The notes beneath the pieces are model-generated. The model did not search any database, was not told the origin of the DNA, and saw nothing but the letters and a program-made list of their open reading frames with translations. A stretch of 64,000 bases of DNA from the human T2T-CHM13v2.0 reference genome, Homo sapiens, in the NCBI RefSeq assembly GCF_009914755.1, contig NC_060943.1; one strand, written 5' to 3'. The translations under genes and the position numbers were made by a program. Positions 2,823 to 47,795 of this stretch are shown here, piece after piece; positions within the stretch are counted from its first letter, which is position 1; every line of letters starts with the position of its first letter.

Positions 2823-3842
<1,020 letters not shown>

Positions 3843-6583: not shown

Positions 6584-6818
6584 CCCCAGCTGTTTTTTAT
6601 GCTCCATGCTTGGGCTTCCTGTTAAGAATTAAAAAAGAAAAAAAAAACTATGGAGATGGAATTTACATACTGTACAACTCATTCGTTCACAGTGTACAAT
6701 TCAGTGGCATTAAGTACATTCACACGGCTGTGCAACCACTACTTCTAATTCCAGAACGTTCGGTCACCCCAAAAGCAAGCCCCATTCCCATTGTGTCACT
6801 CTCCATCCCCTCCACCAG

Positions 6819-6949
6819 CTCCTGGCCACTCTGAATCCACTTCCTGGCTCTGGATTGGCTTGTCCTGGATATTGCATAGAAATGGGATCCTGTCGGCCGG
6901 GCGCGGTGACTCACGAGAGCAAGAGATCCAGACCATCCTGGCCAACATG
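6819..6949 (+). CDS. STK11: STK11 alternative 131-nt exon 1b (L1/Alu chimera). ATG 6882 encodes [23 protein letters not shown] in frame with exon 2
   Basis: Pyrimidine-rich acceptor ...ctccatcccctccaccAG at 6818 and donor ATG|GTGAAA at 6950. 68 nt from the ATG plus the first G of exon 2 reads into EIQLLRR. The length matches my recollection of a described 131-nt intron-1 exon. Confidence 0.7.
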
Positions 6950-7145
6950 GTGAAACCCCATCTCTACTAAAAATACAAAAATTAGCTGGGCGTGGTTGCG
7001 GGCACCTGTAGTCCCAGCGACTCAGGGGCTGAGTCAGGAGAAATCGCTTGAACCCGGGAGGCAGAGGTTGCAGTGAGCTGAGATCATGCCATTGCACTCT
7101 GGCCTGGCGACAGAGTGAGACTCCGTCTCCAAAAAAAAAAAAACA
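6895..7145 (+). mobile_element. Alu with 44-nt internal left-arm deletion and 17-bp TSD
   Basis: TSD AGAAATGGGATCCTGTC at 6878-6894 and 7146-7162. The deletion lies between the two TCACG words of the Alu consensus. Confidence 0.92.
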
Positions 7146-7162
7146 AGAAATGGGATCCTGTC

Positions 7163-7401
7163 ATCCCAGCGTTTTCCGAGGCCGAGGTGGGCAGATGACT
7201 TGAGCCTAGTAGTTCAAACGAGACCAGCCTGGGCAGCACGGTGAAACTGTCTCTACTAAAATACAAAAATTAGCTGGGCATGGTAGCACACGTCTGTAGT
7301 CCCAGCTACTTGCGGGGCTGAGATGGGAGGATCGCTTGAGCCTGGGAGGTGCACTCCAGCCTGGGCGACAGGGAAACCCTGTCTCAAAAAAAAAAAAAAA
7401 A
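7163..7401 (+). mobile_element. Alu (older, partial)
   Basis: Alu consensus match with A tail. Confidence 0.9.
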
Positions 7402-7752
7402 GTGCATCACACACTGTGTGTCCTTTAGTGTCTCACTGTGACATCCTCAAGGTGCAGCTAGGCTGTGGCTCGAGTCAGAGCCTCACTGGTTTTTGTGGCT
7501 GAGTCTTGTTGAGTGCGTGGATGGGCTGTGCTGATCCTCGTCTGTGGAAGGGCCCCTGGGTGGTTCCACATCTCGGCTGCTGTGCGTCCTGCTGCTGTGA
7601 GCATCTCGTGCTCCGTTTCTGCGTGGCGTGTACTGTTCCTCAGGGTGTGTACCTGGGAGTGGAGCTGCTGGCTCACAGGGTAACAGACCTTTGGAGAAGC
7701 TGCAGACGCTTCCACGCCCACCCACTGGGTGTGAGGACCTTGCTCCTCGTCA

Positions 7753-8441: not shown

Positions 8442-8777
<336 letters not shown>

Positions 8778-8854: not shown

Positions 8855-17205
<8,351 letters not shown>

Positions 17206-18150: not shown

Positions 18151-18990
18151 CCCGTGTCCAGGAGCCCCGCCAGGTGCCCGCGCCAGGCCCTCAGTCTTCC
18201 TGCCGGTTCCGCCCGCCCTCCCGGAGAGGTGGCCGCCATGCTTCTGTGCCGACCACGCCCCAGGACCTCCGGAGCGCCCTGCAGGGCCGGGCAGGGGGAC
18301 AGCAGGGACCGGGCGCAGCCCTCCCCCCTCGGCCGCCCGGCAGTGCACGCGGCTTGTTGACTTCGCAGCCCCGGGCGGAGCCTTCCCGGGCGGGCGTGGG
18401 AGGAGGGAGGCGGCCTCCATGCACTTTATGTGGAGACTACTGGCCCCGCCCGTGGCCTCGTGCTCCGCAGGGCGCCCAGCGCCGTCCGGCGGCCCCGCCG
18501 CAGACCAGCTGGCGGGTGTGGAGACCAGGCTCCTGACCCCGCCATGCATGCAGCGCCACCTGGAAGCCGCGCGGCCGCTTTGGTTTTTTGTTTGGTTGGT
18601 TCCATTTTCTTTTTTTCTTTTTTTTTTTAAGAAAAAATAAAAGGTGGATTTGAGCTGTGGCTGTGAGGGGTGTTTGGGAGCTGCTGGGTGGCAGGGGGGC
18701 TGTGGGGTCGGGCTCACGTCGCGGCCGCCTTTGCGCTCTCGGGTCACCCCGCTTTGGCGGCCCGGCCGGAGGGCAGGACCCTCACCTCTCCCCCAAGGCC
18801 ACTGCGCTCTTGGGACCCCAGAGAAAACCCGGAGCAAGCAGGAGTGTGCGGTCAATATTTATATCATCCAGAAAAGAAAAACACGAGAAACGCCATCGCG
18901 GGATGGTGCAGACGCGGCGGGGACTCGGAGGGTGCCGTGCGGGCGAGGCCGCCCAAATTTGGCAATAAATAAAGCTTGGGAAGCTTGGAC
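18151..18990 (+). other. STK11: STK11 non-coding exon 10 (3' UTR); end approximate
   Basis: Exon 9 donor at 17222, 16 nt after the stop. Acceptor ccttccaccctgcAG at 18150. AATAAA at 18636-18641 and tandem AATAAATAAA at 18964-18973. Confidence 0.9.

Positions 18991-40819: not shown

Positions 40820-47795
<6,976 letters not shown>

What the first reader, a model, noticed from the sequence alone, without database searches (positions are those of the whole stretch)
6819..6949. Transposon-built STK11 exon: start codon inside an Alu TSD, frame created by a 44-nt Alu deletion
Seen: an old L1 fragment supplies the acceptor (6818) and a sense Alu supplies the donor (6950), giving a 131-nt exon. A strong-context ATG (gaaATGG, 6882) lies within the 17-bp target-site duplication. 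It reads [23 protein letters not shown] straight into exon 2 (E98 onward). The Alu has lost 44 nt between two TCACG microhomologies; 44 is not a multiple of 3, so an intact Alu would be out of frame. In the exon-1 frame (phase inferred from exon 2) the exon gives TGA at 6832-6834. Known: I recall a 131-nt exon 1b and a mitochondria-targeted LKB1 variant being described. Inference: the exon is both a poison exon for full-length LKB1 and a primate-restricted de novo N-terminus that removes the NLS, the Gly-rich loop and Lys78. Its origin by insertion then deletion is what seems under-appreciated.
Basis: partly seen in the sequence, partly recalled or inferred. Interest (0 to 1): 0.8.

Follow-up and report, generated by a model that had tools for sequence, protein, structure and literature searches.

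The report
Known transposon-built STK11 exon 1b
This is the already published 131-base "exon 1b" of the tumour-suppressor gene STK11, built from an old L1 fragment and a shortened Alu; it mostly makes a message destined for decay and is reported to encode a mitochondrial form of the kinase.

Summary

- L1 acceptor, Alu donor and sensitivity to decay: Masuda 2016.
- Start codon and the 359-aa mitochondrial mLKB1: Tan 2023.
- Alu-Sc exonization, the 44-bp deletion and restriction to great apes: Tan 2025.
- RefSeq lists the exon only in non-coding NR_176325.1.

I did not find four details in those papers:
- The start codon lies in the duplication and is L1-derived. It is present in 21 of 33 other copies and in the 3' duplicate, so it predates the Alu.
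- The donor GT is the usual Alu state (15 of 22 copies).
- Five exon bases come from a third, older Alu.
- The deletion is flanked by TCACG.

A gap remains. In the annotated transcript this ATG is the tenth, 47 nt after a 101-codon reading frame, so how mLKB1 is translated is unexplained.

Verdict: real, and already known.

The parts
6650..6889 (-). Left part of an old dispersed repeat, L1 by RepeatMasker in Masuda 2016, antisense to STK11. It supplies the pyrimidine tract, the AG acceptor, exon bases 6819-6889 and the ATG.
   Evidence: 549 first-look candidates in the genome, 39 other scored places at 69-79% identity; the paper states that L1 occupies the first 71 bp of the 131-bp exon (= 6819-6889); homology to other copies ends at 6889.
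6796..6818 (+). Acceptor: pyrimidine-rich tract and AG (6817-18).
   Evidence: 17 of 20 pyrimidines at -23..-4; 11 of 48 annotated AG acceptors in the window have 17 or more. AG at the homologous place in 23 of 33 other copies of the repeat.
6819..6949 (+). Exon 1b of STK11 (131 nt), a cassette exon between exon 1 and exon 2.
   Evidence: present only in NR_176325.1. EST, RT-PCR and sequencing in the papers.
6832..6834 (+). TGA stop in the frame coming from exon 1.
   Evidence: 101-aa product; the stop lies 1143 nt before the last exon junction, with 9 junctions downstream.
6878..6894 (.). 5' copy of the 17-bp target-site duplication: 12 nt of L1 (6878-6889) plus 5 nt CTGTC (6890-6894) from the 5' end of the older Alu.
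   Evidence: D4 exact 17-mer; D3 shows CTGTC... aligning with Alu sequence; other L1 copies continue differently after ...GGGATC; 71 + 55 = 126 of 131 nt assigned, leaving these 5.
6882..6884 (+). ATG reported as the start of mLKB1 (G at -3, G at +4).
   Evidence: ATG in 21 of 33 other copies; also present in the 3' duplicate.
6895..7145 (+). Sense Alu (called Alu-Sc in Tan 2025) with A-tail 7131-7145. It supplies exon bases 6895-6949 and the donor.
   Evidence: 78.9-86.4% identity to 13 other copies in the window..
6911..6915 (+). Junction of the 44-nt internal deletion. TCACG is the shared motif over which the junction can slide.
   Evidence: gap placed after query positions 13-21 in different pairs, and TCACG at both ends in copy 46785-47018; rhesus and baboon keep 44 bp here.
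6947..6955 (+). Donor ATG|GTGAAA (GT at 6950-51), a weak site with no G at +5.
   Evidence: 4 of 9 matches to the recalled consensus, the lowest of 45 annotated GT donors in the window. GT in 15 of 22 other Alu pieces, identical 9-mer in 9 of 22.
7146..7162 (.). 3' copy of the target-site duplication. It also holds the ATG.
   Evidence: D4.
7158..7401 (+). Older, 5'-truncated sense Alu that already lay in the L1 when the exon-forming Alu landed at its 5' edge.
   Evidence: (D1-D3, D6, D7).
7402..7585 (-). The L1-like repeat resumes after the two Alus.
   Evidence: window 7406-7585 matches L003, L004 and L005 directly next to the match of the left part..
8968..9051 (+). STK11 exon 2. Its first whole codon is residue 98, at the start of the kinase alpha-C helix region.
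   Evidence: 27 of 27 identical to STK11 chains 2wtk_C and 8vsu_C, and aligned to CDK5 51-75..

Best explanation
This is STK11 exon 1b, a low-inclusion cassette exon assembled from three nested mobile elements.

Origin. An old L1 3' end lies antisense in intron 1 and offers a pyrimidine tract, an AG and an ATG. An older truncated Alu had landed in it. A second, sense Alu (Alu-Sc in the literature) then inserted at the L1/older-Alu edge, duplicating 17 bp that include the ATG. That Alu carries the family's usual GT 131 nt downstream of the AG. A later 44-nt deletion between two TCACG motifs put the ATG in frame with exon 2.

Shown in papers. When the exon is spliced between exons 1 and 2, the canonical frame stops at TGA 6832-34 after 101 codons, and the message is a target of nonsense-mediated decay.

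Reported by one laboratory. The ATG at 6882 yields a 359-aa protein (mLKB1) that lacks the NLS and the first three beta strands of the kinase and goes to mitochondria.

Inferred by me. The AG, ATG and GT were inherited ready-made from the elements, so the deletion was the main enabling change. The route by which ribosomes reach this ATG is not explained. All the main points are already published.
For: Anatomy.

Annotation: (exon only in non-coding NR_176325.1, which carries exon 1 with the canonical start).

Papers:
- Masuda 2016, passages: L1 71 bp + Alu 55 bp; the isoform was detected in blood cells only after puromycin, and was also found in subjects without an STK11 germline mutation.
- Tan 2023, abstract, sections 5, 6, 9 and passages: EST BM819015, RT-PCR minor band, 48-kDa band, exon-1b siRNA, localisation of the tagged protein, 101-aa truncated product.
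- Tan 2025, whole main text: Alu-Sc; 44 bp kept in rhesus and baboon and 30 bp in marmoset; in-frame stop in gibbon; junction reads in human heart but not confirmed in apes.

Inherited signals: ATG in 21 of 33 other L1-type copies and AG in 23 of 33; ATG in both duplicate copies; GT in 15 of 22 Alu pieces.

Weak donor: lowest of 45 GT donors in the window, which fits the low inclusion.
Against: - Tan 2025 states that marmoset and rhesus lack the ATG and that monkeys lack the GT, and reads both as later gains. I could not see any primate sequence, so my claim that they were inherited rests on human-internal evidence alone.
- The 33 L1-type copies were chosen as the best matches to this fragment, so they lean towards its states. 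At about 75% identity per site one expects about 42% identical triplets by chance; I observed 64%.
- Protein: no isoform-specific antibody exists, and 'mass spectrometry', 'reinitiation', 'leaky' and 'IRES' each occur 0 times in Tan 2023. The ATG is the tenth in the annotated transcript.
- My own attempts to confirm the L1 identity by protein signatures failed, so it rests on the RepeatMasker result quoted in Masuda 2016.
Confidence: 0.88

Rival explanations
1. The exon is a selected, functional coding exon. Its main role is to make mLKB1, a mitochondrial kinase isoform that protects against oxidative stress, and the decay-prone transcript is a by-product.
For: Tan 2023: a 48-kDa band in the mitochondrial fraction, its loss with an exon-1b siRNA, rescue with an siRNA-resistant construct, respiration and DNA-damage effects, and mitochondrial localisation of the tagged protein and of its N-terminal piece. 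Tan 2025: the frame is intact in all great apes.
Against: - One laboratory. Of 10 papers holding the word mLKB1, only its two concern this isoform, judging by titles (listing only).
- The ATG is tenth in the transcript, after a 101-codon frame.
- The donor is the weakest of 45 in the window.
- Junction reads were not confirmed in apes, and gibbon carries a stop.
- The protein lacks the G-loop and the beta-3 lysine and does not phosphorylate AMPK.
- 68 coding bases give no power to test selection.
Confidence: 0.4
2. The exon is splicing noise. It is a chance pairing of a good L1 acceptor with a weak Alu donor, removed by decay, with neither a regulatory nor a coding role.
For: Minor band only. 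Seen in blood cells only after puromycin. Filed as non-coding by RefSeq. Weak donor. All three signals are the ordinary states of the parent elements. An in-frame open ATG is expected about 1 time in 8 by chance.
Against: The siRNA and rescue experiments of Tan 2023, and the reported rise after oxidative stress (abstract).
Confidence: 0.4
3. The Alu is not internally deleted but 5'-truncated by 44 nt. Its first 21 bases would then be the internal stretch of an Alu that resembles the Alu 5' end.
For: BLAST aligned the whole element end to end with three copies without a long gap (hits 8458-8707, 37608-37359, 37911-37662). In one search three copies gave no internal gap for this reason or because they are themselves truncated.
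Against: In 10 of 13 pairs the best alignment puts the first 13-21 bases on the true 5' end and opens a gap of 44 to 54 nt. Tan 2025 reports that the orthologous element of rhesus and baboon still has the 44 bp.
Confidence: 0.03
4. The published order of events is right: the ATG and the GT arose by point mutation after the Alu inserted, and are not inherited.
For: Tan 2025: marmoset and rhesus lack the ATG; marmoset has CT and rhesus/baboon have GA/GG at the donor.
Against: - Both copies of the 17-bp duplication hold the ATG, which a later mutation in one copy would not give.
- 21 of 33 related L1-type copies have it.
- Baboon has it while rhesus does not, which looks like a loss.
- GT is the state of 15 of 22 Alu pieces, and the monkeys show three different non-GT states.
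Confidence: 0.2

Closest known systems
STK11/LKB1 exon 1b and the mLKB1 isoform (Tan et al., J Biol Chem 2023, PMC10404683; Tan et al., Sci Rep 2025, PMC11772596)
   Same: It is the same object: 131 bp, 9064 bp after exon 1 and 2018 bp before exon 2, ATG with G at -3 and +4, a 101-aa truncated product from the canonical start, a 359-aa protein, Alu-Sc origin, a 44-bp deletion, confined to great apes and human.
   Different: The papers do not mention the target-site duplication, the TCACG motif or the L1 origin of the ATG; 'target site', 'duplication', 'microhomology' and 'L1M' each occur 0 times in Tan 2025, and 'Alu' occurs 0 times in Tan 2023. They treat the ATG and GT as later gains. They do not discuss how the tenth ATG is reached.
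The '131-bp insertion' normal splicing isomer of STK11 (Masuda et al., Hum Genome Var 2016, PMC4775769; Abed et al., Hum Mutat 2001, seen only as a reference)
   Same: The same exon, described as L1 (71 bp) plus Alu (55 bp) with an AG-GT pair, coming from the normal allele and held down by nonsense-mediated decay.
   Different: The paper places the premature stop in exon 2. My reading and Tan 2023 place it inside the 131 bp. No coding role was proposed.
Alu exonization in general (recalled: the work of Sorek, Lev-Maor and Ast; also the enrichment shown in PMC7054216)
   Same: An intronic Alu contributes a splice site and part of an alternatively spliced, mostly frame-breaking exon.
   Different: Typical cases use antisense Alus for both sites; one search reports the enrichment particularly in the antisense direction. 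Here the Alu is sense and gives only the donor, and the acceptor is from an L1.
Delta-N LKB1 (cited in the discussion of Tan 2023)
   Same: An N-terminally shortened LKB1 made from an alternative start, lacking the NLS.
   Different: It starts at an in-frame ATG in exon 3 of the normal message. No new exon and no transposon-derived residues are involved.

Membership tests
Alu retrotransposon insertion | Flanking target-site duplication and a 3' A-tail | tested here: met
   Exact 17-bp direct repeat at 6878-6894 and 7146-7162; A-tail at 7131-7145.
Alu retrotransposon insertion | Sequence similarity over the whole element to other Alu copies | tested here: met
   78.9-86.4% identity to 13 copies in the window. 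I did not test the subfamily (Sc); it is taken from Tan 2025. The 44-nt rather than 46-nt gap fits the type of copy with ...ATCACGAGG....
LINE-1 3' end fragment (antisense) | Dispersed, many diverged copies | tested here: met
   549 first-look candidates, 39 other scored places on many chromosomes at 69-79% identity.
LINE-1 3' end fragment (antisense) | Continuity with an L1 ORF2 (reverse transcriptase) reading frame | tested here: inconclusive
   Pfam gave no L1-related family (one chance-level, unrelated match) for 6 open pieces on the opposite strand, from the window and L007. PDB gave 0 hits for 2 pieces. The own-genome protein search found only 2 places. Assignment to L1 rests on RepeatMasker as quoted in Masuda 2016 and on my recall of the L1M 3' end.
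Cassette exon that triggers nonsense-mediated decay (poison exon) | Inclusion introduces a stop more than about 50 nt before the last exon junction | tested here: met
   TGA at 6832-34; 1143 nt and 9 junctions before the end of splicing. The 50-nt rule is recalled.
Cassette exon that triggers nonsense-mediated decay (poison exon) | The transcript rises when decay or translation is blocked | not testable with these tools
   Reported: the isoform was detected in blood-cell RT-PCR only after puromycin (Masuda 2016).
Cassette exon that triggers nonsense-mediated decay (poison exon) | Regulated inclusion that tunes the gene's output | not testable with these tools
   No data seen. Tan 2023 reports a rise of the protein after oxidative stress (abstract), not of exon inclusion.
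Mitochondrial presequence | N-terminal, net positive, few acidic residues | tested here: met
   Residues 1-23: 4 K+R and 1 D+E, net +3.
Mitochondrial presequence | Amphipathic helix | tested here: inconclusive
   The helical moment of the exon-1b part is at most 0.30. The positively charged stretch with the highest moment (0.46-0.49) starts at residues 20-26, mostly exon-2-encoded. The overall maximum was reached by 1645 of 2000 shuffles, so there is no significant signal.
Mitochondrial presequence | Import shown experimentally | not testable with these tools
   Tan 2023: co-localisation of the tagged protein and of its N-terminal piece with SIRT3. The length of that piece was not stated in the text I read.
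Microhomology-flanked deletion | The same short motif at both break points, one copy left | tested here: met
   TCACG at 6911-6915. Other copies carry TCACG or a one-base variant at both ends of the 44 nt, and the gap position slides by 5-8 nt between pairs. The mechanism itself is inferred.

The most novel reading that the evidence does not exclude
All three signals of the exon (acceptor AG, start ATG, donor GT) were ready-made in the parent elements on the day the Alu landed. The ATG is older than the Alu and was merely copied into its target-site duplication. Five exon bases come from a third element. The single enabling event was therefore the 44-nt deletion between two TCACG motifs, which corrects the published three-step history. 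In addition, the reported protein cannot arise from the annotated transcript by ordinary scanning. It needs either reinitiation 47 nt after a 101-codon frame or an unseen transcript that starts inside intron 1.
Probability: 0.55. Interest if true: 0.3.

Novelty: already known. Interest (0 to 1): 0.15.

Why it matters
STK11 is a major tumour suppressor. This exon appears in RNA-based diagnostics of Peutz-Jeghers syndrome, where it was once taken for a pathogenic event, so knowing that it is a normal, decay-prone isoform matters for variant interpretation. As a scan result it adds little, because the exon, its transposon make-up, its start codon, the 44-bp deletion and the primate restriction are all in print.

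Two things remain worth a specialist's attention. First, the published order of events is probably wrong for the ATG and the GT. Second, no mechanism has been offered for translating a tenth ATG behind the canonical reading frame, which bears on whether mLKB1 is a real product of this transcript.

Tried and rejected
1. Confirming the L1 identity with my own tools led nowhere.
- Pfam on three open pieces of the window's minus strand gave 0 families. Pfam on three pieces of L007 gave only a chance-level, unrelated match.
- PDB sequence searches with L015:6792-7100 and window:7486-7725 gave 0 hits at E up to 10.
- An own-genome search with a 40-aa piece found 2 places only.
- Five extended copies held mostly Alu-derived or unrelated open frames, so I did not scan them.
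- I therefore rely on the RepeatMasker statement in Masuda 2016.

2. In one search my end-free alignment made it look as if CCTGT belonged to the L1 copies. Reading the copies directly showed this was an alignment artefact: the copies continue ...GGGATCACAC..., so 6890-6894 is not L1.

3. The amphipathic-helix analysis of the N-terminus was not significant.

4. The alternative that the Alu is 5'-truncated was rejected (see the rival explanations).

5. Things I could not do:
- Hand the spliced 359-aa protein to the homology, Atlas or structure tools. It is a joined sequence and exists under no reference, so none of those searches was run.
- See any primate genome.
- See RNA-seq, Ribo-seq or proteomic data.
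- See supplements. Supplementary Table 1 of Tan 2025 and Figs S1-S4 of Tan 2023 may bear on the expression, antibody mapping and AMPK claims.

6. I did not test whether other Alus genome-wide carry the same deletion.

7. 'Not in print' rests only. Of the two papers and eight of the ten I saw only the listing.

8. In one search, 6 of the 39 places were left out because their matches end more than 25 nt before the ATG.

Full report
**Observation.**
- AG lies at 6817-6818, the exon runs from 6819 to 6949 (131 nt), and GT lies at 6950-6951. The only ATG of the exon is at 6882-6884, with G at -3 and G at +4.
- translates 6882-6947 into 22 codons without a stop. With the exons joined inside a script, the frame runs on for 359 residues and is identical to canonical STK11 from residue 98.
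- The coding part of exon 1 is 290 nt, so 6819 completes codon 97. Four codons later comes TGA at 6832-6834, giving a 101-residue product.
- The exon 2 peptide is 27 of 27 identical to the solved STK11 chains 2wtk_C and 8vsu_C. It aligns with CDK5 residues 51-75, the alpha-C helix region by my recall. The shortened protein therefore begins where the kinase's first three beta strands end.

**The Alu and its deletion.**
- An exact 17-mer flanks the Alu at 6878-6894 and 7146-7162. The Alu ends in an A-tail.
- I compared the Alu pairwise with 13 other copies of the window. Five show a single 44-nt gap, one a 36+8 gap, three a 46-nt gap and one a 54-nt gap. Three show no internal gap: one copy is itself truncated, and in two the aligner used an internal near-repeat.
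- The gap position slides over TCACG (6911-6915), which stands at or near both ends of the missing stretch in the other copies.
- 44 is not a multiple of three. In the shifted frame, exon 2 stops after four codons.

**What the rest of the exon is.**
- The stretch 6650-6894 is a dispersed repeat. It gave 549 first-look candidates and 39 other scored places at 69-79% identity.
- Homology to those copies stops at 6889 and resumes at 7406, after the two Alus.
- My attempts to tie the repeat to L1 ORF2 by Pfam or PDB searches failed.
- Masuda 2016 reports that RepeatMasker assigns the first 71 bp of the 131 to L1 and the last 55 bp to Alu. These correspond to 6819-6889 and 6895-6949.
- The five bases left over, CTGTC at 6890-6894, match the 5' end of the older, truncated Alu at 7158-7401 (D3). 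They sit in the exon because the younger Alu's duplication copied them.
- The exon is therefore made of three nested elements.

**Inherited signals.**
- I fetched 33 of the 39 other copies. Six were left out because their matches end well before the ATG. Of the 33, 21 have ATG at the homologous place (4 have a gap there), 9 of them with G at -3 and +4. AG is at the acceptor place in 23 of 33.
- The 3' copy of the duplication also holds the ATG.
- Of 22 other Alu pieces in the window that cover the donor, 15 have GT there and 9 have the identical 9-mer.
- So the acceptor, the start codon and the donor are the ordinary states of their parent elements.
- These copies were picked as the best matches to the window, so they lean towards its states. 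The argument from the duplication does not suffer from that bias.

**Splice-site quality.** The donor has the fewest matches to the (recalled) consensus of all 45 annotated GT donors of the window. It lacks the G at +5 that 39 of the 45 have. The acceptor has 17 of 20 pyrimidines. A good acceptor paired with a poor donor fits a minor isoform.

**What is known.** RefSeq carries the exon only in NR_176325.1, a non-coding record that includes exon 1. The papers are:
- Masuda 2016 (passages). The 131-bp insertion comes from the normal allele. It is also present in subjects without an STK11 germline mutation. In blood cells it was detected only after puromycin, which the authors read as nonsense-mediated decay.
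- Abed 2001. I saw it only as a reference.
- Tan 2023 (abstract, sections 5, 6 and 9, passages). The paper describes exon 1b, the Kozak-like ATG, the 101-aa truncated product and a 48-kDa band in mitochondrial fractions. It also reports loss of that band with an exon-1b siRNA, localisation of tagged constructs, activity on histone H1 and none on AMPK.
- Tan 2025 (whole main text). It names the Alu as Alu-Sc. Rhesus and baboon keep 44 bp and marmoset 30 bp. The paper proposes three events (start codon, donor, deletion). It reports that gibbon has an in-frame stop at 'position 97' and that junction reads were confirmed in human heart but not in apes.
- Counting from the exon start, position 97 is window 6915, the first base of codon 12 right at the deletion junction (my arithmetic).

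**Where my reading departs from print.**
- The ATG in both copies of the duplication and in most related copies means it was present before the Alu arrived. Its absence in rhesus and marmoset is then a loss, which fits baboon having it. The same is likely for the GT.
- None of 'target site', 'duplication', 'microhomology' or 'L1M' occurs in Tan 2025. 'Alu' does not occur in Tan 2023. Further searches found nothing on these points.

**An unexplained step.** In the exon 1 + exon 1b transcript, the 6882 ATG is the tenth ATG, at nucleotide 1490. The canonical ATG has A at -3 and G at +4, and four more in-frame ATGs lie upstream. Their shared frame ends 47 nt before the 6882 ATG. Tan 2023 does not use the words 'reinitiation', 'leaky', 'IRES' or 'mass spectrometry'. 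It states that no isoform-specific antibody was available. I recall that reinitiation after long frames is inefficient. So the protein-coding claim is weaker than the decay claim, unless a transcript starting in intron 1 exists. No ATG lies in the exon before 6882, so such a transcript would use it first.

**Targeting signal.** The 23 exon-1b residues have net charge +3 and three prolines, and a low helical moment. The charged, more amphipathic stretch begins at residues 20-26 and is mostly encoded by exon 2. The signal is not significant: 1645 of 2000 shuffles reach the maximum.

**Verdict.** The residue of novelty is small: the L1 origin and greater age of the start codon, the third element, the deletion motif, and the unaddressed translation problem.

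Noticed in passing
window 9052-9060: The intron after STK11 exon 2 starts with ATATCCTT rather than GT. It is the one non-GT donor among 46 annotated donors in the window (sequence). By recall this is the known U12-type AT-AC intron 2 of STK11.
   Followed up: no
window 8458-8707: A second sense Alu, 5'-truncated, lies about 260 nt before exon 2. It has the identical donor 9-mer and reads a similar peptide tail (ORF 8445-8516). It is not annotated as an exon, which shows that the Alu donor alone is not enough.
   Followed up: partly
window 3343-3795 and 10109-10355: RefSeq marks Alu-mediated non-allelic recombination regions in STK11 intron 1 and intron 3 that recombine with each other. The Alus at 3548-3783 and 10107-10342 were among my comparison copies.
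   Followed up: no
window 7458-7725, minus strand: Open pieces on the strand opposite to STK11 show motifs that I recall from the C-terminal part of L1 ORF2. Neither Pfam nor PDB confirmed this.
   Followed up: partly
window 18845-18989: The 3' ends of STK11 (+) and CBARP (-) overlap by 145 nt in the annotation given with the finding and.
   Followed up: no
PMC7054216: The pan-cancer RNA study shows an exonization event in STK11 tied to a somatic change at the 3' end of a new cassette exon. The text I read gives no position, so I cannot say whether it is exon 1b.
   Followed up: no
PMC4775769 against window 6832-6834: Masuda 2016 places the premature stop 'in exon 2', whereas the sequence and Tan 2023 place it inside the 131-bp exon.
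   Followed up: yes
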